A stretch of DNA of 64,000 bases from Myxococcales bacterium (GTDB lineage: Bacteria; Myxococcota_A; Polyangia; Polyangiales; DASUME01). Of the stretch, positions 1 through 27,355 are shown in pieces. Made by a program: the position numbers and the translations under genes. Every line of letters starts with the position of its first letter. Positions within the stretch are counted from its first letter, which is position 1. The notes below the pieces were generated by a model. The model ran no database searches. It was not told where the DNA came from and worked only from the letters and a program-made list of their open reading frames with translations. The stretch covers positions 9,088,001-9,152,000 of the forward strand of contig JASGJH010000001.1 in assembly GCA_047601445.1 (NCBI GenBank). Direction: 5' to 3'.

Positions 1-336
1 TGGAACGCGGCCCAGCGCCAGCTGCTCTGGGAGGGACGCATCCACAACTACCTGCGCATGTTGTGGGGCAAGAAGATCCTCGAGTGGACACGGCATCCGC
101 GTGAGGCACTCGAGATCATGATCCAGCTCAACAACAAGTACGCCGTGGACGGGCGCGATCCCAACTCCTACTCCGGCATCTTTTGGGTGCTCGGGCGCTA
201 CGACCGCCCCTGGGCACCCAAGCGGAAGATCTTCGGCAGCATTCGCTACATGAGCAGCGCGTCCACTCAGCGAAAGCTACGCCTGCGTCGCTATCTCGAG
301 CATTACGGAAGTGCCGCCCAGGGAGAGCTGTTCTGA
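1..336 (+). CDS. phr: Class II CPD (deoxyribodipyrimidine) photolyase, C-terminal part (5' end outside window)
   Basis: Frame 1 from base 1 reads WNAAQRQLLWEGRIHNYLRMLWGKKILEW...LNNKYAVDGRDPNSYSGIFW...DRPW...IFGSIRYM, the class II photolyase FAD-binding C-terminus. Confidence 0.9.
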   Translation, partial: WNAAQRQLLWEGRIHNYLRMLWGKKILEWTRHPREALEIMIQLNNKYAVDGRDPNSYSGIFWVLGRYDRPWAPKRKIFGSIRYMSSASTQRKLRLRRYLEHYGSAAQGELF

Positions 337-2953: not shown

Positions 2954-3983
2954 AGCTCTGTTCCAGTCGTGCGAGCTCGGCCGCCAGCGCCTCGAGCGCC
3001 GCGCCGTGGGAGAATGCGCCCTCGAGCTCCTGCATGGCTGCGCCCACGGCGAGCCGAACGCGCGCTCGCCCCAGCGGCTCCACGGCCTGTGCCAGGCGTT
3101 GCTTGAGCTCCACCAGCTGTTCGCCGCGCCCCACTTGCTTCGAGAGTTGCTTGTAGCTGAGTTGGTCCAGGCTCTCCGCTGCCCACGCCCACACCCAGTT
3201 CACGCGCTGTCCGCGCAAGTCCTCGAGCGCCTTGTCCTGGCGCTCCGGCGCCACGAAGGCACCCAGGTCGTCGAGCATCTGCAGCACCGTGCCAGTGCGC
3301 TCCCCAAAGCGCGCCAGCGCTTCCACATCCGCAGCGCGCGCCTGGGCCACCAGCGCTCCCAGGCGTGCGGCGAAAGCCATCAAGGCACCGGTCTTGAGCT
3401 GACTCGTGGTGTGCGCCACCGCGGGCACCTCGGCGCGCTTCAGCTCGGAGATGTTCAGCGCCAGGTCGAGCGCTTGCCCCTCGTGACAGCGCAAGAAGCA
3501 GCGATGGGCGGCTCGCGTGGTGGCCAGCGCGCGTTCGGGCTCGAGCTCGAGCTCATCGAGCTTGCTCAAGGCCACGAAGTACAGCCAGTTGCCCACGTTG
3601 AGCGCGCGGGGCATGCCCAGCTGCCGATGGAGCGCCGGCGCACCGCGACGTTCTTCGGCGTCGTCCTGGATGTCGTCGACGATGAGCGAGCCCGCGTGCA
3701 AGAGCTCGATGGCTTCGAGAGCTGCCCTGGGCGGCTGTCGCGCCAGGCCACCCGCCAGGCCGTAGCTCGCCTCCACCAGGCGCGCGCGGAAGGCCTTGCC
3801 GGGCCGGGACAAGAACTCCTTGGCACCTGCGAACAGGGCGCGCTCGAAGAGCTGGGGGTCGATGCCCAGGCCCGCGCACTGCCGTGCCTCGTTTTCCAGG
3901 GCGAACGAGAGGCCGTCAGCCTTGGCGTCGGCGTTGGGCTCGCCGTGCGTCTCGGACGGGTCGGGTTGGGGACCTGGCTTCAT
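2946..3983 (-). CDS. crtE: Polyprenyl diphosphate (GGPP) synthase
   Basis: GKAFR, ELLHAGSLIVDDIQDD..RRG (FARM), GQALDL, KTGALM; second Asp-rich motif degenerate (LDDLGA); located in the crt operon. Confidence 0.8.
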   Translation of the reverse strand: MKPGPQPDPSETHGEPNADAKADGLSFALENEARQCAGLGIDPQLFERALFAGAKEFLSRPGKAFRARLVEASYGLAGGLARQPPRAALEAIELLHAGSLIVDDIQDDAEERRGAPALHRQLGMPRALNVGNWLYFVALSKLDELELEPERALATTRAAHRCFLRCHEGQALDLALNISELKRAEVPAVAHTTSQLKTGALMAFAARLGALVAQARAADVEALARFGERTGTVLQMLDDLGAFVAPERQDKALEDLRGQRVNWVWAWAAESLDQLSYKQLSKQVGRGEQLVELKQRLAQAVEPLGRARVRLAVGAAMQELEGAFSHGAALEALAAELARLEQSYG

Positions 3984-5152
3984 GGCAGCTGCTCCAGCTG
4001 CACGCCGCGCGCGCTGCGCAACATGTCCAGGGCCCGCTTGAGCGACAGCCCGCGCGGGGGCGCCCCCATGAAGATGCGCGCGCGGTCCGCGGCGCTCAGC
4101 TCCGCAGCGTAGAATCGCTCGATCAACGGCGCGGGCAGGCGATAAAAATGCTCGAGCACCTCGAACCTCCGCTCGGGCTCGAAGAGTCCGAACATCATGC
4201 GCGTGAGCAAGAAGAGAAATGGCTGTTGTTCGGCGTGCTGCACACGGAAGCGCGCGAGGGCGGAGTCGGCGGCGCGCGGCGCGTGGCGACTCTGGGCCAG
4301 GGCGCTCGCAAAGCGCACCGCGATCGGAAACGAGTAGCCAGTGACCGGATGGAAGAAGCCTGCGCCATAGCCCGCTGCCAGCGCTCCCCCGGAGGCCTCG
4401 ACTTGCTCGGCCTTCCAGGGCATCGGCAAGCTCCCGCGCTCCTCGCGCAACACCTCACGAACCTCAAACCCTTGCTCCCGTGCATAGCTCAGGATGCGGG
4501 CCTTGGAGGCCTCGGCATCGAGGCCGGCGTGATCGGAGAAGAAGGTCTCTTCGAACAAGAAGCGCTCGTCTCCAAAGGGCAGCACGTACATGAAGCGGAA
4601 GCCGTCGTGTTGGGACAGGCACGCATCGATGATCAACGGCTCGGTCGCTGCGGGGGCCTTGACCCTTGCCCGCAGCTCGAGTCCGACGAACTTTTGGAAG
4701 CCTTGCGCGTCGTGGGCGAGGGAGCGCGGCCCGCGGGCATCCACCACGAACCTGGCGCGCAGCACCTCGCCGTCGGACAGCTGGACCTCTTCACGCGCGA
4801 GCTGCGTCACCTCGGTGCCCAGTCGCAACGAGCAACCTGGGCGCATCAGCTGGGCGCTGAGCACGTCGTGCAGTCGTTCGCTCGTCACGCAGCCGTAGGC
4901 AGAGGCGAGGCGTCGGGCTCGGCGCGGGAAGCGCACGTGGTAGCCGTCCCAGCGTGCCACCACCAGGGGCTCCACCCAGGCTCCGTGCTCGGCTCGCACG
5001 TCACGCGCGTGAAAGCACCAGGTGTGATTGCCGCCCAAGCGCCCCTCGCGCTCGACGACGGCCACGCGAAGTCCCGGCTCGACGTCCAGCAGCGCCAGCA
5101 CGCTCAATGCGGTGGTCAGGCCGCCCCCGACGAACAGGTAGTCGTAGTGCAT
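3980..5152 (-). CDS. crtY: Lycopene beta-cyclase (CrtY type)
   Basis: VGGGL, GGNHTWCFH, GFQKFVGLE, DGFRFMYVLPF, REERGSLPM, GFFHPVTGYSFP, LEHFYRLP..LIERFYA; start placed at ATG 5152. Confidence 0.9.
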   Translation of the reverse strand: MHYDYLFVGGGLTTALSVLALLDVEPGLRVAVVEREGRLGGNHTWCFHARDVRAEHGAWVEPLVVARWDGYHVRFPRRARRLASAYGCVTSERLHDVLSAQLMRPGCSLRLGTEVTQLAREEVQLSDGEVLRARFVVDARGPRSLAHDAQGFQKFVGLELRARVKAPAATEPLIIDACLSQHDGFRFMYVLPFGDERFLFEETFFSDHAGLDAEASKARILSYAREQGFEVREVLREERGSLPMPWKAEQVEASGGALAAGYGAGFFHPVTGYSFPIAVRFASALAQSRHAPRAADSALARFRVQHAEQQPFLFLLTRMMFGLFEPERRFEVLEHFYRLPAPLIERFYAAELSAADRARIFMGAPPRGLSLKRALDMLRSARGVQLEQLP

Positions 5153-5301: not shown

Positions 5302-6510
5302 TCAGCTAGGGTCGATGTCGACCCCTTCGCTGACCTGATCGCTCGGGTACAGGATGACGGCCGCCTTTTCGGTCACGCCCTGCTTTACCTGCACCCAGTC
5401 GGGCGTGCGCGCCCCCAGCTCCAGCGGAGCCTTCTCGGCCTTGCCGGCCTCCACCTTGTAGACCGCCCAGGTGTTGCCATCGCGGAAGGTCGCGCTCGCA
5501 GGGACCACCAGCGCGTCGGAAATCAGTGCGGTGCGGATGCGGGCTTCCACGCGATAGCCGTCGCTGAGCGCGGTCCAGGTTTCGTACGGGTCCACCAAAT
5601 CGAGCACCACGGGCACACGCTGTTCCTCCACGCCCAGCGCGCTGCGTGTCGTGAACGCGGAGGGCTCCTTGCGCCGTACGCGAGCGGCGATCGGCTTGTC
5701 CCCGCCCCAGCGCTCGATGCGCGCTGCGGTGCCAGGTTCGATCTTCACGGCCTCTGTACTCAACACGTCCACCACGACCTCGAGCTTGCTTGGATCTCCC
5801 ACTTCGATGAGCGGCATGCCAGGTTGCACCACGGCTTCGCTCTCTTGGTAGACCCTGAGCACACGTCCGCTAATGGGAGCATTCAAGGTCAGGGCCGCCG
5901 AGGCGTTCTTGTTGTTGCCCGACATCGAAGCGATGGCCGCGCGGGCCATATTCAGCTCGTTCTCCGCCACGCGCTCGCCGAACTGGGCCGCCGCATAGTC
6001 CTCCTCGGCCGCCCGCAGCTGGAACTCGCTCTGGTCGAGCGCCTGCTTGGACGTGCCCTGGCTAGCGTGCAGGGTGCGCAGTCGAGAGGCCTCGTCGCGC
6101 GCGAAGCCGAGCGCCGCCTCGGCGCGCTTGATGCTCACGCGGGCTCGCTCCAGGTTGGCCTCCGACATGGCCGCGCGAGCCACCGACTCCGAGCGGGTTC
6201 GCTGATCGAGCAGGCCTGGCGCCACCGGCGAGATCTCGGCCAACACTGCGCCCTCCACGACCTCATCGCCCGGCTTCAGCGAGATGCGTCCGAGGTTCCC
6301 CACCACCGGGGCCGATACCACGTAGCGCGATTTGATGCGGGTCTTGCCGGACTCGTCGACGGTGACCTCGAGCTCTCGCCGCTCCACCTTGCCCAACACC
6401 ACCGCGATTGGCTTGGGCACGAATCCAAGCGAGATCAACACGGCTGCGAGGAGCAGTACGCTCCCTGTGATCAAGCGTCCCAAAAGGCGTCGTCGTTTGC
6501 GCTGATCCAT
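5302..6510 (-). CDS. Efflux transporter periplasmic adaptor (HlyD/MFP family)
   Basis: N-terminal TM, lipoyl-like halves (VSAPVVG..LKPGDEV; LNAPISGRVL), coiled hairpin, SALGVEEQRVPV. Confidence 0.88.
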   Translation of the reverse strand: MDQRKRRRLLGRLITGSVLLLAAVLISLGFVPKPIAVVLGKVERRELEVTVDESGKTRIKSRYVVSAPVVGNLGRISLKPGDEVVEGAVLAEISPVAPGLLDQRTRSESVARAAMSEANLERARVSIKRAEAALGFARDEASRLRTLHASQGTSKQALDQSEFQLRAAEEDYAAAQFGERVAENELNMARAAIASMSGNNKNASAALTLNAPISGRVLRVYQESEAVVQPGMPLIEVGDPSKLEVVVDVLSTEAVKIEPGTAARIERWGGDKPIAARVRRKEPSAFTTRSALGVEEQRVPVVLDLVDPYETWTALSDGYRVEARIRTALISDALVVPASATFRDGNTWAVYKVEAGKAEKAPLELGARTPDWVQVKQGVTEKAAVILYPSDQVSEGVDIDPS

Positions 6511-6512
6511 GG

Positions 6513-8870
<2,358 letters not shown>

Positions 8871-13563: not shown

Positions 13564-14393
13564 ACCGAGACCGCGAAGCGGATGAAGGGATGGTGTTGGT
13601 ACTCGACCAGCTGGATGTCCTCGAAGCCCAGTTCGTCGAGCGGCTTCTTGGCGATCTCGACGCGCGGCGGCGCCAGGGGTGCGCGCGTCAACTGGAGCTT
13701 GAGGCCTTCCACGTGGTTCAGGTAGATGTGCGCGTCGCCGAGGGTGTGCACGAACACGCCGGGCGTGAGGTCGCACTCCTGAGCCATCATCATCAGGAGC
13801 AGGGCGTAGCTCGCGATGTTGAAGGGCACCCCGAGCGCGATGTCGGCCGAGCGCTGGTAGAGCTGCATGTCGAGCCGACCCCGGTTGACGTAAAACTGGA
13901 AGAACGCGTGACACGGCGGCAGCGCCATGTGCGGGATGTCGGCCACGTTCCAGGCGCTCACGATGATGCGGCGCGAGGTGGGGTCGCGCTTGATGAGGTC
14001 GATGGCCTCGCGAATTTGGTCGATGCCGGGTTCCGAGCGCTCGCCGCGCACCTCGTGCTTGTCGCGCGTGTGCTGCGCGAAGGGGGCGCCCCAGTGTCGC
14101 CACTGGTGGCCGTACACGGGACCGAGCTCGCCGTTCTCGTCGGCCCAGGCGTCCCAGATGGGCGAGTGCTGCGTGAGGTCGTCGCGCACGTTGGTGCTGC
14201 CGCGCAGAAACCAGAGGAGCTCGCGCACGACACCGGTCCAGAGCACCTTTTTGGTGGTCAAGAGCGGAAAGCCTTCGCGCAAGTCGTAGCGCGTCTGCGC
14301 CCCGAAGATCGACAGGGTGCCGGTGCCCGTGCGGTCCTCGCGGCGTTCGCCCTCGTCGAGGACACGCTGGACCAGTTCCAAATACTGCTTCAT
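13560..14393 (-). CDS. thyA: Thymidylate synthase
   Basis: [56 protein letters not shown]. Confidence 0.97.
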
Positions 14394-14920
14394 CGATTCC
14401 CCTCGGTCTTGGTCGGGTCCTGACTTGGCTCGCGCGTGGCAGCACGCGCGTCTTGACTCGGCTCGCGCGTGGCAGCACGCGCGTCTTGACTTGGCTCGCG
14501 CGTGGCGGCACGCGCGTCTTGACTCGGCTCGCGCGTGGCAGCACGCGCGTCGACACACTCATCGATCCGGTCGCCCGTGATCTCGCCGCGCAGGGCGTCT
14601 TGGTGGGCCAGCCAGGCTTCGATCACCTGGGGCGGCACGCGGTGCTTCTCCAGCGTGGTCTTGAGGATTTGCCTGCGACGCCCGAAGTGGCCGCCCATGA
14701 TGGGGTGCCGCTGATGGGCCTCGCGCATGTCCCGGCCGGAGTAGCGGACCTGCGCCCCCAAGAACTCGGCCGCATGCTCGTACTCCATGCGCTTGAGGCG
14801 GTCCCGATTGACGCGCGCAAACAGGAAGCCGATCATGCCGTCCGCGCATACGCGCTCCACGAAGTCGTCGATGATCGCAGAGAGCGCGAACTCCCCACCG
14901 ATGTCTTCGAAGTACGTCAC
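14390..14920 (-). CDS. Group I truncated hemoglobin with a C-terminal tail of 11-aa repeats
   Basis: [41 protein letters not shown]; tail ([11 protein letters not shown])x4; stop overlaps the thyA ATG. Confidence 0.75.
14421..14551. repeat. Tandem repeat, 4 x 33 bp, each unit containing an 8-bp inverted repeat
   Basis: Unit TGACTYGGCTCGCGCGTGGCRGCACGCGCGTCT starting at 14421, 14454, 14487 and 14520; stem CGCGCGTG-N4-CACGCGCG. Confidence 0.95.
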
Positions 14921-17010: not shown

Positions 17011-17520
17011 TTAGTGCAGGCCCTTTTCCGTGATGTAGCGCAGGGTAAACGCGGCTTTGTCGGCGTTCCCCTCGACGCTCGACTTGGCCACGAAGTGCTC
17101 GATGATGGAGCCGATGCCGAAGATCTTGCAGTGCACGGAGTTCTTGCTCAGCTGCTCCACGCCACTTGCGTTCTCGTCGAGCCGCACGGCGCCGAGGATC
17201 TCCACGCGATCACCGATTACCGCCGGCACCATTCGATACGACCAGCACTTCTCGCGCGGATCGAACTTGCTGATCTCCTCGATGATCACGTTCTCGCCCA
17301 CCAGCTTGCGGATGGGGAGCGGAGCTTCGAGCGGCTTTTCGAAGCGCAGGCGTCGACTCATGCCCGTCTCGTAGTCGCCCTTGTGCTCGAGCACTTCCAT
17401 GCGGATGAATCCGAGCGCCTCGCAGTAGAGGCGCTGCTGGTAGTCGAGGTTCAGGCATAGCTCTCGCCAGTACGTCTCGGCGCGGACAGGGAAACGCTTG
17501 CGGAATTCGGATTCGATCAC
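17011..17520 (-). CDS. DUF2505-like (START/SRPBCC-fold) putative lipid-binding protein
   Basis: About 169 aa; P.PIRKLVG..IEE...WSY...VHCKIFGIGSIIEHFV pattern; GTG start overlaps the stop of the upstream dehydrogenase. Confidence 0.55.
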   Translation of the reverse strand: MIESEFRKRFPVRAETYWRELCLNLDYQQRLYCEALGFIRMEVLEHKGDYETGMSRRLRFEKPLEAPLPIRKLVGENVIIEEISKFDPREKCWSYRMVPAVIGDRVEILGAVRLDENASGVEQLSKNSVHCKIFGIGSIIEHFVAKSSVEGNADKAAFTLRYITEKGLH

Positions 17521-18542
17521 ACCAGACCCTGTTCTTTGAGGTGCGCACAGGTCAGGCGGATGCCCTCCGCCAGGTTCACCTTGGGCTCGTAGCCCAGGTC
17601 CCTGCGTGCCTTGTCGATGCTGAAATAGTGATGCCTCACCATATAGCGCACGGCAAACCGGGTCATCCCATCCTCCGCATTGAGGGTGCCCCCGCGCAGG
17701 GTATCGATGCCCTCCTTGATGGCGGCCGCGGCAAAGACGACGGGGTACGGGACCCCGCCCAGGATCGGCGGAAGCTTCAGCTCGGCGAGCACTTTGCCCA
17801 CGAAAGTGAAGAACGGCAGCGGCTCGCCGTTCGTCACGAAATAGGCCTGACCCGCGCTCGGACTGTCGGGGACGAGCCGACGATCCGCCAGGAGCAGCGC
17901 ATCTACCAGATTGCCCACGTAGGTGAAGTCGGAGAGCTTGCGATTGAAGAGGCCCACCGAGAAGCGCAGCTTGCCCGCCTTGGCCCGCTGCAGGACCGCT
18001 GGAAAGAAGCGCCGATCGCCGGGGCCGAACACCACGTGGGGACGGATCGCGCAGGTGAGCACTCCGCGCTGGCCGTTGGCCGCCAGGATCTCCTGTTCCG
18101 CTACGATCTTGCTGTCGGAGTAGGGAGCCTGACTCTTGCTGGAGTAGGGCAGGGTCTCGTCGCCGTTCTCGATGTCCTCGCCTTCGTACACGGCGCTGGC
18201 GGTGCTCACGTACACGAGCTTCTTCACGCGGGCCTTCCAGCAAGCGCGCAACACGCTGCGCGAGCCGCCCAGATTCACCGACCACACGTCGCTCTCGCGG
18301 TTGTGTTTGGTGTGAACCAGCGAGGCGTTGTGGAAGACCGTGGTCACGCCCTCGCAGAGCTTGGCCAGCGCGTCGGTGTCACGGATATCCACCCGCTCGA
18401 AGCGCATGTCGGAGCGCCAGGCCTCTCCGAAGGGCTCCACCACGATCACCGCGTCGCCGCGGGCGATCAGCGCGTCCACCAGGGCGCGACCCACGAAGCC
18501 GGCCCCCCCCGTCACCAACGAAACCTGCCTCTGCGTTTCCAT
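17517..18542 (-). CDS. 3-beta-hydroxysteroid dehydrogenase/decarboxylase family extended SDR (NSDHL/Erg26-like)
   Basis: VTGGAGFVG, YSDSK catalytic motif, CAIRPHVVFGPGD, DFTYVGN, GQAYFVTNGEP, YFSIDKARRDLGYEP. Confidence 0.85.
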   Translation of the reverse strand: METQRQVSLVTGGAGFVGRALVDALIARGDAVIVVEPFGEAWRSDMRFERVDIRDTDALAKLCEGVTTVFHNASLVHTKHNRESDVWSVNLGGSRSVLRACWKARVKKLVYVSTASAVYEGEDIENGDETLPYSSKSQAPYSDSKIVAEQEILAANGQRGVLTCAIRPHVVFGPGDRRFFPAVLQRAKAGKLRFSVGLFNRKLSDFTYVGNLVDALLLADRRLVPDSPSAGQAYFVTNGEPLPFFTFVGKVLAELKLPPILGGVPYPVVFAAAAIKEGIDTLRGGTLNAEDGMTRFAVRYMVRHHYFSIDKARRDLGYEPKVNLAEGIRLTCAHLKEQGLV

Positions 18543-18560
18543 GGTTCGCGATGATGGTTC

Positions 18561-18586
18561 GAAAAATAGAATCGTCAATCTAAAAA
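18561..18586. promoter_or_regulatory. AT-rich divergent promoter with an imperfect palindrome (candidate TetR operator)
   Basis: AAAAATAGAATCGTCAATCTAAAAA; TAGA-N8-TCTA at 18567-18582; TTGACG on the minus strand lies inside it. Confidence 0.4.
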
Positions 18587-18643
18587 CTGGTTTGCCCGCT
18601 TCGAAGGGGCGAGTACAGTGCCCGGCAGAAGAGGGGCCGCCAC

Positions 18644-19783
18644 ATGGGCAAGCACGACTACGGGCACAACAAACCTGCGCCGCCGACGTTCGAAGAGGCC
18701 AACAACCTCCGTCAGCGGGCGCGCGTCGCCGGCATGGATCCCAACTACTGGTATCCGGCCATGATGTCGCGGGACTTGGCGGTCGGTGCGGTCAAAGAGG
18801 TGGTGTTCTGGCACCGCTCGTTCGCGTTCTTCCGCGGGCAAGACGGCGTGGTGCGCGCCATGGAGAACCGCTGTGCCCATCGCAACCTCAAGCTGACGCT
18901 GGGGCAGGTCGAAGGTTGCACGCTGCGCTGCGCCTACCACGGCTGGGCCTACGACGGCGAGGGCTGCCTGGTGGACATGCCCCACAACGACTTCGGCAAG
19001 AAGCTCAAGATCTCGCTGGAGACGTTCCCCGTGGCCGAGCGCTACGGGATGATCTTCTTCTTCCCCGGTGATCCCGAGCTCAGCAGCAAGCGCGAGATCC
19101 CTAGCATTCCCGAGATCGAAGGTGCGGACCCCTGGGCCCACGGCGTCATCGACTTCCACTGGAAGGGTCATCACTCGATGATCCTCGACAACGTCAGTGA
19201 CTTCACGCACGGCTACCTGCACCGCAAGTGGCGCCCCTTCGAGGGAGATCAGCTGTTGAGCCTCGAAGAGGCCAACGACCGCGTGATGCTGCAGTACAAC
19301 GCCAAGATCGCGGCCGCGAAGATCATGGACGTGCTGATCGATCGCAAGGCCCACGCGGGAACCTCGCACTACTCCTGTTACGAGTACCCTTACCAGTGGT
19401 CGAACACCGAAGAGTTCGTGAAGCACTGGCTGTTCGTGTGCCCGGTGGACGAGCGCAACACCATGGTGTTCTTCCTCTTCTACTACGCTGACTTCAAGGT
19501 TCCCTTCTTGCCGATCAAGCTGCCGCGCAAGCTGATGACCCCGCTGGTCCGCATGGGCCACGAGTACCTGGTGCGCCCGCTGTTCAACGAGGACGGCTGG
19601 GCCGTGCAGATGGAGCAGGAGGGCTACGACGGCCATTGGGACGCGCCGCTGGCAGAGGTGAACCCTCAGGTGCTCGCATTTCAGCGCCTCACCGTGCGCA
19701 AGTGGGAGACCTACCTGGAGAGTCAGAAGCTGACCAACATCAAGCGCAAGAAGCGGGAGCGCTCGGAGAATGCAGATGCCTGA
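18644..19783 (+). CDS. Rieske non-heme iron oxygenase, alpha subunit
   Basis: Rieske ligands CAHR...CAYHGW; mononuclear Fe motif DNVSDFTHGYLH and a later ED. Confidence 0.92.
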   Translation: MGKHDYGHNKPAPPTFEEANNLRQRARVAGMDPNYWYPAMMSRDLAVGAVKEVVFWHRSFAFFRGQDGVVRAMENRCAHRNLKLTLGQVEGCTLRCAYHGWAYDGEGCLVDMPHNDFGKKLKISLETFPVAERYGMIFFFPGDPELSSKREIPSIPEIEGADPWAHGVIDFHWKGHHSMILDNVSDFTHGYLHRKWRPFEGDQLLSLEEANDRVMLQYNAKIAAAKIMDVLIDRKAHAGTSHYSCYEYPYQWSNTEEFVKHWLFVCPVDERNTMVFFLFYYADFKVPFLPIKLPRKLMTPLVRMGHEYLVRPLFNEDGWAVQMEQEGYDGHWDAPLAEVNPQVLAFQRLTVRKWETYLESQKLTNIKRKKRERSENADA

Positions 19784-21402
19784 AGCCATCGAGATCACCA
19801 GCAGTGCATCCGTGCGCGACGCCCTCAAGAAGGCGGAGGCGCGCGGCCTCATCGAGTGTTACGAGCCCGCCACGCGCAAGCCCCTCGGCAGTGTGCAGGT
19901 CACCCCGCCCGAGAGCCTGCCCGGCCTGGTGCAGAGGGCGCGCAAGGCGCAGACGCTGTGGGCCAAGACGTCCTTCGACGAGCGCCGCAAGGTGATCGGG
20001 TTGTTGCTCGACCACGTGCTGGCCCATGCGGACGAGCTGTGCGACGTGGTGTCGCGCGACTCCGGCAAGACGCGCCATAACGCCATGCTGGGCGAGGTCT
20101 GGCCGGTGGTGGAGAAGGCGCGTTGGACCATCGCCCACGGTGAGAAGTTCCTGCAGACGGAGCGGGTTCCCTCCGGCGTCTTCCCCCACAAGCGTGCTCG
20201 CATCGAGTACGCACCGCTCGGCGTCATCGGCGTGATCGCGCCTTGGAACTACCCGCTGCAGAACATCCTCGGACCGACCATTCCTGCTTTGATGGCGGGC
20301 AACGCGGTGATCGTGAAGGTCAGCGAGTGGGTGGCCTGGTCGTCCGCGCGCTTCCAGAAGATCTTCGACGACGCCTTCAAGAAGGCTGGCTATCCGGTGG
20401 AGCTCGTGCAGATCGTGAACGGCTACGCCAAGACCGGCGCCGCGCTGGTCTCGTCGGGCGTGGACAAGATCGTGTTCACCGGTTCCCTCGAGAACGGCAA
20501 GCGCGTGCTCGCGCAGGCGGCAGACACGCTGACGCCGGTGGTGCTCGAGCTGGGTGGCAAGGATCCGCTCATCGTCTGCGACGACGCTCACATGGAGCAG
20601 GCGGTCCATGCGGCGTTGACTGGGTGCTTCATCAACTGCGGGCAGAACTGCCTGGCCAGCGAGCGCGCCCTGGTGTTCGACGCCGTCTACGACGCTTTCG
20701 CGGCGCGCGTGGTCGAGACCACCAAGCAGCTGCGCCAGGGCGAGCCGATGGGCGGATCCACCGTGGATCTGGGCGCCATCGTGTCGCCCTTGCAGCTCGA
20801 TTCTGATCGAGGGCCTGGTGCAGGAGGCCGTGCGGCAGGGGGCGCGCCTGTTGACTGGAGGCAAGCGAGCCCACGTGGAGCGCGGCCAATACTTCGAGCC
20901 CACCATCCTGGCGGACGTGACGCCCGACATGCGCATCGCCCACGAGGAGACCTTCGGGCCGGTGATGTTGCTGATGCGCGTCAAGAACGAGGAGGAGGCG
21001 CTGCGCGTGGCCAACGGCACGGCCTATGGCCTGGGCGCCACCGTGCTCTCCAAGGACGCGGCGCGCTGCCGACGCATGAGCTCGGCCCTGTCGGTGGGGA
21101 ACGTGTCGGTCAACGACTTCGGGCTCACGTACATGGCCATGGATTTGCCGTTCGGCGGCGTGCGTGGCTCGGGCTTCGGGCGCCTCAACGGCCGCGAGGG
21201 CCTGCGCGCCTGCACCAACATGAAGGCGATTCTCGAGGATCGCTTCCCGCTGCACGTGCCGGCCAAGGTGTTCCCCATCGGGCAGAACGCGGTCTCGGTG
21301 TCGCGCGAGGTCCTGCGCGTGCTCTACGAGCGTCGGCTCGGACAGCGCGTCGACGCCCTCGGCAAGTTGGCAGGCCTGGTGCTCAAGCGAGGCGAGTCGT
21401 GA
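19770..21402 (+). CDS. Aldehyde dehydrogenase; single-base frameshift at 20799-20803, probably an artefact
   Basis: PWNYP, FTGS, LELGGKDP, catalytic GQNC; removing one T from GATTC continues LDLIEGLVQEAV...EETFGPV...PFGGVRGSGFGR. Confidence 0.9.
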
Positions 21403-23045
21403 GTTCGCAGGCCGAGAGCTTCGACTACATCGTGGTCGGCGGCGGCTCGTCGGGCTGCGTGGTGGCGGGCGAGCTGTGCGCGGAGACGCGACTCGAGGTC
21501 GCACTCGTGGAGCAGGGCGACGACGCCGAGGCGCACCCCGAGACGCTGGAGGCGGACGGCTACAAGCACGCCTTCGCCAACGACGACCTGTTGCTCGACC
21601 GCTTCAGCACGCCGCAGGAGCACTGCAGGCAGCATCGCCTGTATTTGGGCTCCGGACGCGGGCTCGGTGGCAGCGGCTCCATCAACGGCATGGTCTACAC
21701 GCGTGGCGCCAAAGAGGACTACGCGAGTTGGCCGCGCGGCTATCAGTACGATGACCTGGCGCCGCTCTTCCAGTCCCTCGAGAACAAGCTGCGCGTGCGC
21801 CCGCGGGCCGGCACCGAGTTCACGGAGGTTTTCGTGCGTTCGGCCGAGGCCGCGGGCTTTCGCCGCAGTGCGAACATGAACGACGGCGACCTGTCGGGTG
21901 TGATCGGCTACGAGACCATGAACTACGAGGGCAGCGCGCGGCGCAGCTCTTACGTGTCCTACGTGCGCGAGGCACGGCAGCGCGAGAATCTGCACCTGGT
22001 GACGCGGGCGCTCACGCGACGCGTGATCTTCGAGGGCAACCGTGCGGTCGGCGTGGAGATCGAGCAGGCCGGCAAGCGCCGCGTCCTGCGCGCGCGCCGC
22101 GAGGTCATCCTGTGCGCCGGTGCGCTGGAGACGCCCAAGCTGCTGATGCTGTCGGGCGTGGGGCCGGCGGCCGAGCTGGCCAACCACGGTCTCAAGACGG
22201 TGGTCGACATGCCGTCGGTCGGCGAGAACCTGCACGATCATCCCAACGTCACGATGTTCTTCATGGGCAAGCACGAGGTGGACTCGTACTACCCGCAGTT
22301 GTACGGCTTCCATCGGGCCAACCCCGACAGTGACCTGCCCAAGGGACAGAGCGACACCTGCTACGTGATGTACCCCGCGCGCTCGTCGCTGCGCGAGGCC
22401 GCGATGCGCATGTTGCCGACCAAGCTGCCGGTGCCGCTCTACGGCAAGGCCTCCAAGGGGCTGATCCGCGCAGGCATCGCGGGCGCCACCAGTCTCGGCT
22501 TGGTGCAGGGTGGCATCGCACGCGTCTGGGGCTGCGTGGTGATCCTGGGCAAGCCCAAGAGCCGCGGACGACTCAGCCTGGCGTCGCGAGACCCCAAGCT
22601 GCAGGCCCACATCGATCCGGGCTACTTCACGCATCCGGAGGACATGGAGACCATGATCCGCGGCGTGAAGCTCGGTCGGCGCATCGCACAGGCGGAGCCG
22701 CTCGCCAAGTGGGGCAACTTCCCGCTGTTGCCGTTGGTGGCCAAGACCGACAAGCAGATTCAGGACTTCATCGAGGGCAACTTGATGACCACCTTCCACT
22801 ACGCAGGTACCTGCCGTATGGGCGAGGACAAGGCCAGCGTGGTCGATCTGGAGCTCAAGGTGCGCGGCACGCGCGGTCTGCGCGTGGCGGACGCTTCGGT
22901 GGTGCCGTTCACGCCCGTGTCAGCGATGAACGCGCCCAGCATGGTGATCGGCCTCAAGGCGGCGCGCCTGGTGCTCGCCCACGAGCGCTCACTGGGCAGC
23001 TCGAACTCGGAGATCAGCGGAGAACGTGAGGCATGGGGCGGCTGA
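21399..23045 (+). CDS. GMC family FAD oxidoreductase (alcohol/choline dehydrogenase-like)
   Basis: DYIVVGGGSSG, GRGLGGSGSINGMVYTRG, VGENLHDH, FHYAGTCRMG, LRVADAS, NAP; GTG start overlaps the ALDH stop. Confidence 0.92.
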   Translation: MSSQAESFDYIVVGGGSSGCVVAGELCAETRLEVALVEQGDDAEAHPETLEADGYKHAFANDDLLLDRFSTPQEHCRQHRLYLGSGRGLGGSGSINGMVYTRGAKEDYASWPRGYQYDDLAPLFQSLENKLRVRPRAGTEFTEVFVRSAEAAGFRRSANMNDGDLSGVIGYETMNYEGSARRSSYVSYVREARQRENLHLVTRALTRRVIFEGNRAVGVEIEQAGKRRVLRARREVILCAGALETPKLLMLSGVGPAAELANHGLKTVVDMPSVGENLHDHPNVTMFFMGKHEVDSYYPQLYGFHRANPDSDLPKGQSDTCYVMYPARSSLREAAMRMLPTKLPVPLYGKASKGLIRAGIAGATSLGLVQGGIARVWGCVVILGKPKSRGRLSLASRDPKLQAHIDPGYFTHPEDMETMIRGVKLGRRIAQAEPLAKWGNFPLLPLVAKTDKQIQDFIEGNLMTTFHYAGTCRMGEDKASVVDLELKVRGTRGLRVADASVVPFTPVSAMNAPSMVIGLKAARLVLAHERSLGSSNSEISGEREAWGG

Positions 23046-23704
23046 GTCCGAAAGACGGCGCCAAGCGCGCCAAGGCGGACATGTACCGGCGCCTCATCCT
23101 CGAGGCGGCCGAGCGCATCTTCGCCAGCGCGGGCTTCGAAGACGCCAAGATCCAGGACATCGCCCAGGGAGCGGGCATTTCGCTCGGCACGCTCTACACC
23201 GTGTTCCCGGGCAAGTCCGAGATCTACGACGCCGTCCAGGAGCAGCGCGGTCGCGAGATTCTCGAGAGCATCTTCCGCGCCTTGCAGGGACACGAGGGCG
23301 TGTACGACGCCTCCATGCGCGGCATCGAAGCCTACGTGCGCTCGCTGGTAGAGCGCCCGGCCTATCTGCGCATGCACCTGCGGGAAGGCCTGTCATGGAC
23401 CGAGCGGGATTCCATGCGCAGCGGGGAACAGCGTGCGATCTGGGAGCGCGGTGTGTCCATCGCGGTGAGCCTGCTGCAGGCAGGTATCGAGCAGGGCTAC
23501 TTCCACGGCGAGAATCCGCCGGAGCTGCTGCTCAAGATGATGATCGCCAGTCACCAGGTCCAGATCAAGGACTGGCTCGATCGCGGCGCCGTGCCGAGCG
23601 AGGTGGACTCGCTGGTGGCGCGCATGCAGGCACATTTTTCGCGCGCGTTCGTGCGCGACGAGAGTGCACGGGCGAACAAGAACAAGAAGCGTGTGAGCGG
23701 GTAG
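23033..23704 (+). CDS. TetR/AcrR family transcriptional regulator
   Basis: ILEAAERIFASAGFEDAKIQDIAQGAGISLGTLYTVFPGK. Confidence 0.92.
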   Translation: MGRLSPKDGAKRAKADMYRRLILEAAERIFASAGFEDAKIQDIAQGAGISLGTLYTVFPGKSEIYDAVQEQRGREILESIFRALQGHEGVYDASMRGIEAYVRSLVERPAYLRMHLREGLSWTERDSMRSGEQRAIWERGVSIAVSLLQAGIEQGYFHGENPPELLLKMMIASHQVQIKDWLDRGAVPSEVDSLVARMQAHFSRAFVRDESARANKNKKRVSG

Positions 23705-23715
23705 GGGAGAGAGTC

Positions 23716-25122
23716 ATGCAGACAGAGGCCAGCGTAGGCAGCACAGGCAAGTCCCGCGGCAACACCGCGCCATCCAAGAGCTACCGAGCGGTTCCGACGG
23801 TCTCGGGCGGTCTGCCGGTGCTCGGTCACAGCATCGAGTTCGCCGCCAATTTGTTGGGGCTGGTGAAGCGCGGTTACCAGGAGCACGGCGAGGTCGCGGG
23901 GCTCAAGGTGTTCGGCCGCAACATCGTGCTCTTGAGCGGCACCGACGCCCAGGAGGCCCTGTTTCGGGCGCCCGACGAGGTGTTGAGCCCGAACGAGGCC
24001 TACAAGATCATGACGCCCGTGTTCGGCAAGGACGTCGTGTACGACGCCAGCCCCGAGCGCATGGGTGAGCAACTCGGCATGCTGCGACCCGCGCTGCAGG
24101 ACAAGCGCATGCGCACCTATGGCGAGATCGTGGCCGAGGAGACCCGGCGCGCTGTATCGAGCTGGGGCGAGCGCGGCGAGCTCGATTTGGTGGAGTTCTG
24201 TGCCTCGCTGACCAACTTCACCTCCACCCACTGCCTGCTCGGGCGCGAGTTCCGCGAACAGATGAGCACCGAGTTCGCGCAGGTCTACTACGACCTGGAG
24301 CGCGGCGTGACCCCGGCGGCGTACATCCATCCGAACCTGCCGCTGCCTTCCATGCGCAAGCGCGATAAGGCCCGCGTGCGCCTGGTGGAGATGATCGAAG
24401 AGATCGTGAATCAGCGCCAGCGCAGCGGCAGCCGCGGCGAGGACTTCCTGCAGACCTTGATGGACGCGGAGTACAAGAACGGGGACAAGCTTACGCCCCA
24501 CGAGATCACCGGCATGTTGCTGGCAGCCATGTTCGCCGGTCACCACACCAGCAGCGTGACCACGGCGTGGACCCTGATCGAGCTCGCGCGCACCCCAGAC
24601 TATCTCGACCGCGTTCTCAACGAGCTGCACACGGTGTACAGGCCTGGGGACGACGTGACCTTCCAGTCGCTGCGTCAGATCCCGCTCACCGAGTACGCCG
24701 TCAAGGAATCGCTGCGGCTTCACCCCCCGCTCTACATCCTCCTGCGTTCGGCCCTCGTGGACTTCGAGTACCGGGACTATCTGCTGCCCAAGGGCACCTG
24801 GCTCGCCACGTCGCCCTGGGTCTCGCACCGCATTCCCGGCATCTTCCCCGAGCCGGAGCGCTTCGATCCGGACCGCTTCGCCCCGGGTCGCGAGGAGGAC
24901 AAGAAACAGTTCTCGTTCATCGCCTTCGGCGGCGGGCGCCACAAGTGCCTCGGCAACGCGTTCGCCATGCTGCAGGTCAAGACCATCTTCGCCATCTTGT
25001 TGCGCGGCTTCGAATTCGAGGTCCTGCACGACCCGATCATCCCGGAGAGCGGCCTGGTCATGGGGCCCAAGAAGCCATTCCGCGTGCGGTATCGTCGGCT
25101 GCGCCCCAACGGTCAATTCTGA
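23716..25122 (+). CDS. cyp51: Cytochrome P450, CYP51 (sterol 14-alpha-demethylase) family
   Basis: SRS1 AYKIMTPVFGKDVVYDA, I-helix MFAGHHTS, KESLRLHPP, FDPDRF, heme motif FGGGRHKCLG. Confidence 0.88.
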   Translation: MQTEASVGSTGKSRGNTAPSKSYRAVPTVSGGLPVLGHSIEFAANLLGLVKRGYQEHGEVAGLKVFGRNIVLLSGTDAQEALFRAPDEVLSPNEAYKIMTPVFGKDVVYDASPERMGEQLGMLRPALQDKRMRTYGEIVAEETRRAVSSWGERGELDLVEFCASLTNFTSTHCLLGREFREQMSTEFAQVYYDLERGVTPAAYIHPNLPLPSMRKRDKARVRLVEMIEEIVNQRQRSGSRGEDFLQTLMDAEYKNGDKLTPHEITGMLLAAMFAGHHTSSVTTAWTLIELARTPDYLDRVLNELHTVYRPGDDVTFQSLRQIPLTEYAVKESLRLHPPLYILLRSALVDFEYRDYLLPKGTWLATSPWVSHRIPGIFPEPERFDPDRFAPGREEDKKQFSFIAFGGGRHKCLGNAFAMLQVKTIFAILLRGFEFEVLHDPIIPESGLVMGPKKPFRVRYRRLRPNGQF

Positions 25123-25134
25123 GGAGAACGACAC

Positions 25135-25326
25135 ATGAAGATCGTCATCGATTGGGGTCTGTGCCAGGGGCACGCGAACTGCACCGGCGACGCTCCCGAC
25201 GTGTTTTCGGTGGACGACAACGGCAAGCTCACTGTGCTGCTCCCGGAGCCGCCCGAAGAGATGCGAAGCCAGCTGGAGCTCGCGGTCCGCTACTGTCCGA
25301 CGGGCGCGATTCGGATCGAGGGCTAA
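25135..25326 (+). CDS. [3Fe-4S] ferredoxin, P450 redox partner
   Basis: CQGHANC...CPTGAI (His in place of the second Cys); GAGGAG Shine-Dalgarno; lies directly after the P450. Confidence 0.9.
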   Translation: MKIVIDWGLCQGHANCTGDAPDVFSVDDNGKLTVLLPEPPEEMRSQLELAVRYCPTGAIRIEG

Positions 25327-25429: not shown

Positions 25430-27355
25430 ATGGGCATCGGGCGACCTCTGGTTCTCTCTTCGCTGTGGGTGACGGCGGCTCTTACAGCCTGTGGTGACGC
25501 CTCGACTCCCAGCGCCGACGCCGGGGCGGACTCGGGAGTCGTGAGCCCACTCGGTCCCTGCAAGCGACGCAATCCGACCCGCGATCCCTTCTTCGGCGAC
25601 CTGCACGCGCACACGGCCCTCTCGCTCGACGCGAACCTGCAAGGGACTCGGTTGCGCCCGGCGGATGCCTACCGGTTCGCACGCGGTGAGACCGTGGGGC
25701 TGCCGCCCTACGACAGCGCGAACAATCCGCAGCGCACGCTCACGCTATCGCGCCCGCTCGACTTCGTGGCCCTGTCGGATCACGCGGAGTTCCTGGGCCT
25801 GGTCACCACCTGCCTCACGCCTGGGCTGCCTGGCTACGACTCCAGCGAATGCACCCAATACCGAGACGACCCGGATACGGCGTTCCTGCTGCTCAACAGC
25901 CAGCTCGCCGCCGACCAGTCGACTGCGGGCTACCGGACTCCGTGCGACCAAGCCAACAACTTCTGCGACTCCGCGGCGCTCAGCGCCTGGAATGAAGTGA
26001 AGGCTGAGGCCGAAGCGGCCAACGACGAGAGCGAGGAGTGCGCGTTCACGGCCTTCGTGGCCTACGAATGGTCCGCTTCTCCCGGCACCCTGAACCTCCA
26101 TCGCAACGTCATCTTCCGCAACCAGAGTGTGCCGACTCTGCCGTTTAACTACTTCGATGGCAGCGAAGAAGAAGAGCTCTGGGACGCGCTCGACAAGGAC
26201 TGCCTCCAGGCCGGCAGCGGCTGCGACGCTTTGACCATCCCGCACAACTCCAACCTTTCGGCGGGCCTGATGTTCGAGCCCGTGAAGGCCGATGGGCAGG
26301 CCTTCGACAAGGCCTACGCCGAGCGCAGGGCGGCGTTCGAGCCGTTGGTGGAGATCTTCCAGCACAAGGGCAGCTCCGAGTGCTTGCCCGAGATGGGGCC
26401 GGACGAGTTCTGCAACTTCGAGAAGATGCCCTACAACACGCTGTCCACCGTGGTCTTCGGGCTGCAGCCCGACAAGCTGGTGCCGCGAGACTACGTGCGG
26501 GATGCGCTCGGCCAGGGGCTGCGCTTTCAGGCCACGCTCGGGGCCAACCCGTTCGGCTACGGCTTCGTGGCGAGCACCGATACGCATATGGGCACGCCCG
26601 GCGGCGTGGAGGACGACAAGTTTCAGGGTCACGGTGGGGCAGGCTCGAACGCACGCGATGCGCTGCCGCAGGGCCTGGTCGACCACGTGTGGCTCAACCC
26701 CGGTGGCCTGGCGGTGCTCTGGGCCGAGGAGAACCGCCGCGACTCGCTGTTCGACGCCATGCGTAGACGCGAGGCCTACGCCACGAGTGGATCGCGCATT
26801 GTGCTGCGCTTCTTCGGCGGCTCCGACATCCCTGACAACCTGTGTGGTGCCGCAGACTTCGTGCAGCAAGGCTACGCGCTCGGGGTGCCGATGGGAGGCG
26901 AGCTCAAGTCCCAGCAGCCACCCAAGTTCGCCGTCTACGCACTGAAGGACGCGGGCACAGCCGAGCTGCCTGGCGTGCCCTTGCAGCGCGTTCAGATCAT
27001 CAAGGGCTGGCTCGAGAACGACAGCGTGCAGTACGCCATCTACGACGCAGCGGGGGGCGGCAACGACGCCAACGTCGATCCCAACACCTGCGAGCGCAGC
27101 GGCGCCGGCCAAGACGAGCTGTGCGGGGTCTGGACCGATCCCGACTTCGATCCGGCGCAGCACGCCTTCTACTACGCGCGCGTGCTCGAGAACCCCAGCT
27201 GCCGCTGGCATGCCCTGCAGTGCAGCCGCGCGGGCGTGACTTGCGGGGCGGATGGCCCGAGCAAGCCTGGTTTCGAGGGCTGCTGCGACGAGCGCTATCC
27301 CAAGGTGCAGCAGGAGCGCGCCTGGTCGAGCCCCATCTTCTACAAGGCCTTGTGA
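25430..27355 (+). CDS. DUF3604 domain lipoprotein (PHP-like metallohydrolase)
   Basis: Lipobox LTAC; FFGDLHAHT, PLDFVALSDHAE, NLHRNVIFR, IPHNSNLS, STDTH, FYYARVLENP, ERAWSSPI. Confidence 0.85.
   Translation: MGIGRPLVLSSLWVTAALTACGDASTPSADAGADSGVVSPLGPCKRRNPTRDPFFGDLHAHTALSLDANLQGTRLRPADAYRFARGETVGLPPYDSANNPQRTLTLSRPLDFVALSDHAEFLGLVTTCLTPGLPGYDSSECTQYRDDPDTAFLLLNSQLAADQSTAGYRTPCDQANNFCDSAALSAWNEVKAEAEAANDESEECAFTAFVAYEWSASPGTLNLHRNVIFRNQSVPTLPFNYFDGSEEEELWDALDKDCLQAGSGCDALTIPHNSNLSAGLMFEPVKADGQAFDKAYAERRAAFEPLVEIFQHKGSSECLPEMGPDEFCNFEKMPYNTLSTVVFGLQPDKLVPRDYVRDALGQGLRFQATLGANPFGYGFVASTDTHMGTPGGVEDDKFQGHGGAGSNARDALPQGLVDHVWLNPGGLAVLWAEENRRDSLFDAMRRREAYATSGSRIVLRFFGGSDIPDNLCGAADFVQQGYALGVPMGGELKSQQPPKFAVYALKDAGTAELPGVPLQRVQIIKGWLENDSVQYAIYDAAGGGNDANVDPNTCERSGAGQDELCGVWTDPDFDPAQHAFYYARVLENPSCRWHALQCSRAGVTCGADGPSKPGFEGCCDERYPKVQQERAWSSPIFYKAL

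What the first reader, a model, noticed from the sequence alone, without database searches (positions are those of the whole stretch)
17011..25326. Self-contained, TetR-regulated sterol demethylation cassette, possibly with a split C-4 oxidation route (Rieske + GMC + ALDH + NSDHL-like) plus CYP51/ferredoxin
Seen: eight tightly coupled genes around one ~100-bp divergent promoter. Minus strand: NSDHL/Erg26-like 3-beta-HSD and a START-like protein. Plus strand: Rieske oxygenase, ALDH, GMC oxidoreductase, TetR, a P450 with CYP51 signatures (TPVFG..VVYD, AGHHTS) and a ferredoxin. Established: CYP51 removes the sterol C-14 methyl; methanotrophs remove a C-4 methyl with a Rieske oxygenase (SdmA) plus an SDR (SdmB); eukaryotes use Erg25/Erg26/Erg27. 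Inference: here the methyl-to-carboxyl oxidation may be divided among the Rieske hydroxylase, the GMC alcohol oxidase and the ALDH before NSDHL-type oxidative decarboxylation. I do not recognise that division of labour from described pathways. The embedded TetR and the absence of squalene epoxidase or oxidosqualene cyclase in this window suggest inducible remodelling or catabolism of exogenous methyl-sterols (e.g. from prey) rather than constitutive synthesis.
Basis: partly seen in the sequence, partly recalled or inferred. Interest (0 to 1): 0.85.

Follow-up and report, generated by a model that had tools for sequence, protein, structure and literature searches.

The report
Hybrid sterol demethylation gene cassette
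This myxobacterial genome carries a conserved eight-gene cassette that likely trims methyl groups off the sterols the cell is predicted to make itself, pairing a bacterial-type oxygenase with a eukaryote-like decarboxylase and two predicted helper dehydrogenases, which would give a testable job to an enzyme family long guessed to fill a gap in plant sterol synthesis.

Summary
The eight genes are there. The ALDH has a one-base frameshift at about 20801, absent in 9 of 9 orthologues. The Rieske protein is SdmA-family, the P450 is CYP51, and the SDR is ERG26/NSDHL-type, not SdmB. The ALDH belongs to the published 'ERG27-analogue' family. SdmB was not found in this genome or in 9 of 9 same-genus genomes; the bacterial ERG25 homologue was not found here either. 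Elsewhere the same ALDH-GMC pair sits beside ERG25-like genes (38 of 148 GMC loci) or SdmA (15 of 148), never both; a third locus type has a P450 and no ALDH. So SdmA fills the ERG25 slot of a eukaryote-type C-4 module, with GMC as a member the searched papers do not list. The catabolic reading fails here: squalene epoxidase, oxidosqualene cyclase, ERG24 and ERG2 lie elsewhere in the genome and KstD was not found. It fits relatives that lack the cyclase and carry KstD-like genes. The split oxidation is plausible but untested; the 3-ketoreductase is unidentified. New variant of a known kind.

The parts
17011..17520 (-). DUF2505 protein, START/PRELI-like helix-grip fold, likely lipid or sterol shuttle; in this cassette only within the genus
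   Evidence: Pfam PF10698; model pLDDT 89; Foldseek hits PRELI/Ups1, Aster, Lam4 StARkin TM 0.77; in 6 of 148 GMC loci
17517..18542 (-). ERG26/NSDHL-type 3-beta-hydroxysteroid dehydrogenase / C-4 decarboxylase homologue (not SdmB)
   Evidence: Best PDB hit human NSDHL 6jkg, 153 bits against 72 for the next; 57-58% to N. exedens SFD64430, the published bacterial ERG26 homologue; clade apart from SdmB; TGGAGFVG, STASA, YSDSK
18564..18585 (.). Conserved near-palindromic site in the divergent promoter, candidate TetR operator
   Evidence: Present in 10 of 10 aligned intergenic regions; a matrix built without the window's own site scores it 36.5 bits, next site in the genome 19.6; no site above background before 8 of 8 unlinked sterol genes
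18644..19783 (+). SdmA-family Rieske oxygenase, predicted sterol C-4 methyl hydroxylase
   Evidence: NF052579 341 bits (tested E. salina SdmA 403; cut-off 600); 53% to E. salina SdmA; Rieske and mononuclear-iron ligands invariant; nests among SdmA; only close SdmA homologue in the genome
19770..21402 (+). Aldehyde dehydrogenase of the 'ERG27-analogue' family; one-base frameshift near 20801-20802 in this assembly
   Evidence: PF00171 in two pieces; catalytic Cys and Glu motifs kept; the intact orthologue L017 is 57% to E. salina KIG15697 and 50% to KIG18489, both in the published ERG27-analogue tree; frameshift
21399..23045 (+). GMC flavoprotein with His467/Asn511 pair, predicted primary-alcohol oxidase/dehydrogenase
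   Evidence: Pfam GMC_oxred N and C; H467 and N511 invariant in 60 rows; closest solved structures alcohol and choline oxidases, about 30% identity, TM 0.8; adjacent to the ALDH in 98 of 99 loci holding both
23033..23704 (+). TetR-family regulator, orthologous across the module
   Evidence: PF00440; TetRs of L107, L146 and L147 have it as best hit in this genome; in 49 of 148 GMC loci
23716..25122 (+). CYP51 sterol 14-alpha-demethylase homologue, the only one in the genome
   Evidence: Best PDB hits CYP51 7jj1/6mi0/6mcw at 496 bits; other P450s of the genome about 25%
25135..25326 (+). Small ferredoxin, likely electron donor of CYP51
   Evidence: PF13459/PF13370; beside or fused to CYP51 in related loci

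Best explanation
The cassette is likely the demethylation block of this bacterium's own predicted sterol pathway, in which an SdmA-type Rieske oxygenase has likely taken the ERG25 slot of a eukaryote-type C-4 module. Inferred steps, none tested: the unlinked epoxidase-squalene synthase fusion and cyclase make lanosterol. CYP51 with the ferredoxin removes the C-14 methyl. The Rieske enzyme hydroxylates a C-4 methyl. The GMC oxidises the 4-hydroxymethyl to the aldehyde and the ALDH takes it to the acid, as helpers that finish intermediates the oxygenase releases and spare O2 and NAD(P)H. The NSDHL-type SDR oxidises the 3-hydroxyl and releases CO2. The 3-ketone is then reduced by the same SDR run backwards or by an unidentified unlinked SDR. 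The TetR would repress both arms from the palindrome in the divergent promoter until a methyl-sterol intermediate binds it. Shown by calls: gene identities, synteny, absence of SdmB and ERG25 homologue hits, presence of the upstream pathway.
For: Family assignments. Upstream and downstream sterol genes in G000; the cassette holds its only CYP51 and only close SdmA. SdmB best hit in G000 about 30%, orthologues 41-62%; SdmB in 0 of 9 same-genus genomes but 67 of 80 of the panel. Of 121 SdmA loci, 94 have SdmB, 11 have the NSDHL-type gene, none both. ALDH and GMC co-occur in 37 of 80 genomes, GMC alone 1, ALDH alone 5. Of 148 GMC loci, 38 hold the ERG25-like gene, 15 SdmA, none both; six loci with GMC and/or the SDR but no ALDH hold a P450 beside the SDR. 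Pseudomonadales-order loci have a GMC-ALDH-ERG25-ERG26 run in 5 of 6 by threshold, the sixth with a weaker GMC. E. salina SdmA alone accumulates the 4-aldehyde (PMC10202945). The ALDH keeps the thiol chemistry of aldehyde oxidation.
Against: No activity was measured. Published SdmA does all three oxidations and needs only an SDR (PMC6385002 passage; PMC10202945), so GMC and ALDH are not required. GMC is missing from the cassette of G083 and not found in G027 and G083; G203 has GMC and SDR but no ALDH orthologue; L038 has ALDH with SdmAB and no GMC. In many genomes ALDH-GMC lie apart from any sterol gene: only 60 of 148 GMC loci show a core sterol gene, though many contigs are short. The ALDH is frameshifted in this assembly. 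SdmA is reported to attack the 4-beta methyl while NSDHL substrates are 4-alpha acids. No 3-ketoreductase and no Rieske reductase is in the cassette. G076 of the same genus has an unlinked ERG25-like gene. Monophyly of the SdmB-less Rieskes is weak (56/95).
Confidence: 0.55

Rival explanations
1. Same sterol role and same hybrid, but no split oxidation. The Rieske enzyme takes the methyl to the acid by itself, the NSDHL-type SDR decarboxylates, the ALDH-family protein is the 3-ketosteroid reductase as Desmond and Gribaldo proposed, and the GMC does something else, such as oxidising the 3-hydroxyl or clearing a side product.
For: Published three-step SdmA chemistry. The ERG27-analogue proposal rests on phyletic pattern and synteny with ERG25/ERG26. 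The cassette otherwise has no ketoreductase. GMC and ALDH can each be lost alone.
Against: The ALDH keeps catalytic Cys and Glu motifs of aldehyde oxidation; ketone reduction by an ALDH fold has no precedent that I recall. It is kept in KstD-bearing, cyclase-less genomes that would need the 3-ketone, not its reduction. An alcohol oxidase directly beside it in 98 of 99 loci fits an alcohol-aldehyde-acid sequence.
Confidence: 0.25
2. One reading: in this organism the cassette mainly remodels or degrades methyl-sterols taken from prey or the surroundings, induced through the TetR.
For: The operator-like site is unique to the cassette and absent before 8 of 8 unlinked sterol genes. Relatives carry the ERG25-type module without a cyclase (0 of 5, 1 of 5) and with KstD-like genes (8 of 12 genomes). 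A START-fold protein is attached in this genus.
Against: G000 has epoxidase, cyclase, ERG24, ERG2, methyltransferase and DHCR24-like genes; a cyclase was found in 8 of 9 same-genus genomes. KstD was not found in G000, G076, G006 or G407; KshA-type hits in G000 are weak (83 and 60 bits against 231 in two degraders).
Confidence: 0.12
3. ALDH and GMC oxidise another position or another lipid (for example a side-chain methyl or the C-14 intermediates of CYP51) and only travel with the sterol genes.
For: GMC directly precedes CYP51 in several loci. ALDH-GMC often lie away from C-4 genes. Outside genus g8, 12 of 70 GMC genomes gave no cyclase hit.
Against: The pair forms one run with ERG25-like and ERG26-type genes in Pseudomonadales-order loci, with CYP51 on the other strand or absent. 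The ERG25-like gene and GMC co-occur in 33 of 38 genomes that have the former.
Confidence: 0.08

Closest known systems
Bacterial SdmAB / SdmABC C-4 demethylase (methanotrophs, E. salina, Calothrix; PMC10202945)
   Same: SdmA-family Rieske oxygenase, 53% to the tested E. salina enzyme, clustered with CYP51 as many SdmA loci are.
   Different: No SdmB/SdmC orthologue was found in the genome or genus; the partner SDR is ERG26/NSDHL-type; GMC, ALDH, TetR and a START-fold gene are added.
Myxobacterial 'eukaryote-type' ERG25 + ERG26 + ERG27-analogue cluster (PMC2817430; PMC8237579, bioinformatic only)
   Same: Holds the ERG26 homologue and the ERG27-analogue ALDH of those studies.
   Different: The ERG25 homologue is not found and SdmA sits in its place. 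The GMC is a conserved further member; 'GMC' has 0 hits in the supplement of PMC8237579. The ALDH is read here as aldehyde-oxidising, not keto-reducing.
Eukaryotic ERG25/ERG26/ERG27 complex
   Same: NSDHL-type oxidative decarboxylase and CYP51.
   Different: Rieske instead of di-iron oxidase; no ERG27 or ERG28 in the cassette; operon with a TetR.
Mycobacterial cyp51-ferredoxin-cyp123-TetR operon (PMC7947880 passage)
   Same: CYP51, ferredoxin, a TetR and a second oxygenase in one locus; a nearby ALDH (Rv0768 model exists in NCBIfam).
   Different: The ALDH is not that family (TIGR04284 274 bits against cut-off 775). An analogy only; the rest of the comparison is recalled, not tested.

Membership tests
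SdmA Rieske sterol C-4 methyl oxygenase | Rieske CxH/CxxH ligands and mononuclear iron His-His-Asp | tested here: met
   C77, H79, C96, H99, D186, H189, H193, D317 invariant in 36 rows
SdmA Rieske sterol C-4 methyl oxygenase | Groups with characterised SdmA rather than VanA, KshA or ring dioxygenases | tested here: met
   Nested among SdmA loci; 53% to E. salina SdmA, whose locus matches Lee 2023 Suppl. Fig. 7; best solved Rieske only 74 bits
SdmA Rieske sterol C-4 methyl oxygenase | NCBIfam NF052579 cut-off of 600 bits | tested here: inconclusive
   341 bits, but the tested E. salina SdmA also falls short at 403
SdmA Rieske sterol C-4 methyl oxygenase | Oxidation of the 4-beta methyl of 4,4-dimethyl sterols | not testable with these tools
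   Needs heterologous expression and GC-MS
SdmAB two-enzyme system | SdmB/SdmC-type SDR beside SdmA or elsewhere in the genome | tested here: not met
   Best hit about 30% in G000; 0 of 9 same-genus genomes, none in G407 or G024
ERG26/NSDHL family | Extended SDR motifs, closest solved relative NSDHL, clade with the published bacterial ERG26 homologue | tested here: met
   No eukaryotic sequence was in my own tree; the link to eukaryotes rests on the PDB hit and the published tree
ERG26/NSDHL family | NAD-dependent decarboxylation of 4-carboxy sterols | not testable with these tools
   Needs an enzyme assay
'ERG27-analogue' ALDH family | Clade with KIG15697, SFE02202 and KIG18489 apart from ordinary ALDHs | tested here: met
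   Intact same-genus orthologues group with them, 97 support, against two paralogues of G000 as outgroup
'ERG27-analogue' ALDH family | Intact reading frame in this assembly | tested here: not met
   One extra base near 20801-20802
Myxobacterial ERG25/ERG26/ERG27-analogue cluster | Bacterial ERG25 homologue (KIG18488 family) in the cluster or genome | tested here: not met
   Profile of 13 rows finds none in G000 and 1 of 9 same-genus genomes, 38 of 80 overall; the eight other FA_hydroxylase genes of G000 give at best E about 5e-8
CYP51 | TPVFGxxVxYD, AGHHTS and heme motifs; closest solved relatives CYP51 | tested here: met
GMC primary-alcohol oxidases/dehydrogenases | FAD-binding motif, His/Asn catalytic pair, alcohol-oxidase fold | tested here: met
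   cholesterol oxidase is not among the 40 sequence hits or the listed fold hits
Steroid ring-degradation (9,10-seco) organisms | KstD and a strong KshA in the genome | tested here: not met
   No NF005882 match at E 1e-10; KshA_C hits 83 and 60 bits only
START/SRPBCC lipid-binding proteins | Helix-grip fold | tested here: met
   sterol binding itself not testable

The most novel reading that the evidence does not exclude
GMC + 'ERG27-analogue' ALDH + ERG26-type SDR form a portable back end for sterol C-4 demethylation that accepts three unrelated front-end hydroxylases (ERG25-like di-iron, SdmA Rieske, P450). The widespread eukaryotic 'ERG27 analogue' would then be a sterol 4-aldehyde dehydrogenase, not the missing plant 3-ketoreductase. 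The same module would be the entry route by which cyclase-less, KstD-bearing bacteria strip lanosterol- and cycloartenol-type sterols before ring degradation.
Probability: 0.35. Interest if true: 0.85.

Novelty: new variant of a known kind. Interest (0 to 1): 0.66.

Why it matters
Bacterial C-4 demethylation by SdmAB is presented as independent of the eukaryotic ERG25-27 route (PMC10202945). A natural hybrid would show that the two routes exchange parts. It also gives a small soluble system in which to test, in the existing lanosterol-producing E. coli host, what the 'ERG27-analogue' ALDH does. That family has been a candidate for the missing plant 3-ketosteroid reductase since 2009 (PMC2817430), and none of the papers I read reports an assay. 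The cyclase-less, KstD-bearing carriers point to how 4,4,14-trimethyl sterols may be opened to degradation, which bears on reading sterane biomarkers. If GMC and ALDH prove dispensable, the finding shrinks to a gene-shuffled variant of a known pathway.

Tried and rejected
Raw reads to settle the frameshift: no run was listed, which is no evidence either way. The original SdmAB paper (PNAS 2018) was not held; its content is taken from a review passage and from Lee 2023. Earlier scan findings: nothing shown. Rejected: aromatic-degradation Rieske. Rejected: SDR as SdmB (74 bits on NF052578; tree) or as OleD (233 bits against cut-off 580). Rejected: the 1091-aa ORF 19770-23045 as an ALDH-GMC fusion; it is the frameshift read-through, and the genes are separate in orthologues. 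Rejected: TetR control of the whole sterol pathway through this operator. ESM Atlas gave only generic ALDH and fatty-acid-hydroxylase clusters. The P450 of L213-type loci could not be assigned to a family. Bsr and EBP-like genes were not found in G000 with the queries used. Complex prediction, the search of protein representatives and read laying were not used. Paper searches: SdmA+sterol+C-4 demethylation, 11 papers, 9 listed; SdmB+NSDHL+bacteria, 2; MSC7+sterol+aldehyde dehydrogenase, 1 unrelated; ALDH22A1+sterol, 3 unrelated by listing; myxobacteria+sterol+GMC oxidoreductase, 0; ERG27+aldehyde dehydrogenase+C-4 demethylation+sterol, 1; cyp51+cyp123+Rv0767c, 3; SdmA+SdmB+sterol from 2024, 2; lanosterol degradation terms, 2. 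By listing none describes this arrangement; most subscription papers are outside the library.

Full report
OBSERVATION. The window is G000:C1:9088001-9152000 of a 9.5-Mb single-contig genome, 98.7% complete. Its nearest named relatives are Polyangiales/Myxococcales MAGs. The eight genes are at the stated place with overlapping or nearly touching ends around a 101-bp divergent gap. The ALDH is split by one extra base near 20801-20802. All 9 orthologues aligned lack that base. By a similar test 2 of 111 conserved genes of the genome are frameshifted, this one included. No sequencing run was listed, so assembly error against a strain-specific lesion stays open; I lean to error because orthologues are intact.

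WHAT EACH PART IS. Rieske: 341 bits on the methanotroph SdmA model, far above any other model; the experimentally tested E. salina SdmA scores 403 and also misses the 600 cut-off. [quoted passage not shown] Trees place it among SdmA sequences. SDR: best solved relative is human NSDHL; it is 57-58% identical to N. exedens SFD64430, which Hoshino and Gaucher list as bacterial ERG26 homologue; it falls in a 100-support clade apart from SdmB. ALDH: an intact orthologue is 57% and 50% identical to E. salina KIG15697 and KIG18489, both in the published 'ERG27-analog' tree. That family was proposed from phyletic pattern as the missing 3-ketoreductase. The names MSC7 and ALDH22A1 for its yeast and plant members are recalled. 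P450: CYP51, best hits at 496 bits. GMC: His467/Asn511 invariant, confident model, nearest structures alcohol and choline oxidases; reading that pair as alcohol-oxidising is established GMC chemistry, recalled. DUF2505: START/PRELI-like fold.

THE REST OF THE GENOME. An epoxidase-cyclase-like-squalene synthase fusion and an oxidosqualene cyclase lie at C1:4.797-4.802 Mb. The cyclase has Y/N/V at human positions 381/449/453; V453 marks the lanosterol route. Also found: ERG24 family, two ERG2-family genes and a CPI1-like gene (the CPI1 label is recalled from sequence likeness, no Pfam hit), a sterol methyltransferase homologue at 55% and a DHCR24-like gene at 34% (the DHCR24 label is my reading of an FAD_binding_4 protein). 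The cassette holds the only CYP51 and the only close SdmA. Not found: SdmB (best about 30%), the bacterial ERG25 homologue, KstD; KshA-type hits are weak.

DISTRIBUTION. The Rieske query matched 86 of 401 genomes of the order, 7 of 9 in the genus. In an 80-genome panel chosen mostly from SdmA-positive genomes, SdmB was found in 67, in 0 of 9 of the genus and not in G407; of the 13 without SdmB, 12 have the NSDHL-type gene. ALDH matched 42 of 80 and GMC 38 of 80, together in 37. Across the order GMC matched 123 and cyclase 129 of 401, both 76; outside genus g8, GMC is in 58 of 110 cyclase-positive and 12 of 236 cyclase-negative genomes. Kin are not independent, large searches scored only 2-3 candidates per genome, and these tallies include the unpublished G122 as one count.

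SYNTENY. After dropping 12 duplicate or overlapping fetches, 148 fetched loci hold the GMC (some are short, and a few are probably one organism reached through two collections). ALDH is in 99, adjacent on the same strand in 98; the NSDHL-type gene in 47; TetR in 49; CYP51 in 41; an ERG25-like fatty-acid hydroxylase in 38; SdmA in 15; the last two never together; SdmB in 1. The hydroxylase is the family of E. salina KIG18488, which is in the published ERG25 tree. Of 121 SdmA loci, 93 have SdmB only, 1 SdmB plus ALDH, 11 neither partner, 11 the NSDHL-type gene with ALDH, 5 ALDH-GMC on contigs without it. SdmA-ALDH-GMC or the full set recurs outside the genus in L107, L229, L282, L288 and L289; these Rieskes (L229 and L289 not in the tree) form one side of a branch with weak support, 56/95. 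A third type (L213, L259, L263, L265, L273, L293; L213 and L273 identical) has SDR, TetR, GMC and mostly CYP51, no ALDH, and a P450 beside the SDR; G203 of this type gave no ALDH, ERG25-like or SdmB orthologue. The ALDH matched 15 of 281 genomes of the order around G418, reached through a Pseudomonadales-type record; 6 of the 15 were fetched, and 5 show GMC-ALDH-ERG25-ERG26 by threshold, the sixth with a weaker GMC, CYP51-ferredoxin in 3.

TWO USES OF ONE MODULE. Five GMC-positive genomes of family f8 with 97-100% completeness gave no cyclase hit, nor did 4 of 5 of the Pseudomonadales-order carriers. KstD-like genes matched 8 of 12 genomes tested: the three g8 genomes, G203 and the four Pseudomonadales-order ones, but not G076, G006, G407 or E. 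salina.

REGULATION. A near-palindrome at 18564-18585 is kept in 10 of 10 aligned divergent promoters. A matrix built without the window's site finds it at 36.5 bits, next 19.6 in 9.5 Mb, and nothing above background before 8 of 8 unlinked sterol genes. A related site (10-11 bits, background 99th percentile 5.4 for 430-bp windows, loci longer) lies between TetR and ALDH in several ERG25-type loci. Binding by this TetR is inferred.

MECHANISM. Most likely: CYP51/ferredoxin for C-14; Rieske hydroxylation, GMC to aldehyde, ALDH to acid, NSDHL-type decarboxylation for C-4; reduction of the 3-ketone by the same SDR or an unlinked one. I put the sterol-demethylation role and the hybrid at about 0.85 and the helper roles of GMC and ALDH at about 0.55-0.6 given that. 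Against: SdmA is reported to run all three oxidations on the 4-beta methyl and to need only an SDR; either helper can be lost; the ALDH is broken here; no reductase for the Rieske centre and no ketoreductase is in the cassette.

COMPARISON AND NOVELTY. It works like SdmAB at the first step and like ERG26 at the last, but fails the defining test of each system (no SdmB; no ERG25). Hoshino and Gaucher describe the two sets as separate clusters. The paper searches listed under Tried and rejected showed no account of the hybrid or of the GMC. New variant of a known kind.

PAPERS SEEN. PMC10202945: main text parts 1-3 of 6, supplement search, supplementary file 1 part 2 of 4. bioRxiv 2024.11.01.621555: parts 1-3 of 6; supplements closed and could bear on SdmA trees. 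PMC8237579: main-text passages, supplement parts 2, 30, 31 of 32 and term searches. PMC2817430, PMC6385002, PMC7947880: passages only. PNAS 2018 SdmAB paper: not held. Others: search listings only.

Noticed in passing
window 303-5152, minus strand: Carotenoid cluster: phytoene synthase, phytoene desaturase-like, polyprenyl synthetase and lycopene cyclase domains.
   Followed up: no
window about 6500-8800, minus strand: The FtsX-type ABC permease gene also appears frameshifted against its orthologue in L058.
   Followed up: partly
window 14390-14560, minus strand: Truncated globin gene ending in four tandem copies of an 11-residue repeat, just before thyA and folA-like genes.
   Followed up: no
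L137:6968-12261 (G000 C1 about 4.797-4.802 Mb): Squalene epoxidase fused to a cyclase-like stretch and a squalene synthase domain, followed by a cyclase with the lanosterol-type Y/N/V signature.
   Followed up: partly
L193:6983-7873, L194:7134-8705, L139:8015-8746: Scattered sterol methyltransferase homologue, DHCR24-like gene and CPI1-like gene; the organism may make C-24 alkylated sterols. A CPI1-like gene beside a lanosterol-type cyclase is unexplained.
   Followed up: partly
L325:23-646, L326, L329, L230; G000 C1:5203692-5204306: A 200-aa protein without NCBIfam hit follows CYP51 in cyclase-less loci and has a 48% homologue in this genome; it recalls mycobacterial Rv0762c (from memory, untested).
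   Followed up: partly
L037:10552-13041, L045, L047, L054: SdmB fused to HMG-CoA reductase and/or squalene synthase domains in other Polyangiales loci.
   Followed up: no
L185-L187, L191, L192: A long-branch SdmA paralogue (36-39%) in non-sterol neighbourhoods, some in genomes without SdmB.
   Followed up: partly
L021 (G083) and G076:C57: G083 has lost GMC from the cassette; G076 has the hybrid cassette and also an unlinked ERG25-like gene.
   Followed up: no
window 25430-27355: DUF3604 gene after the cassette, kept there only in the two closest relatives among the loci; probably not part of it.
   Followed up: partly
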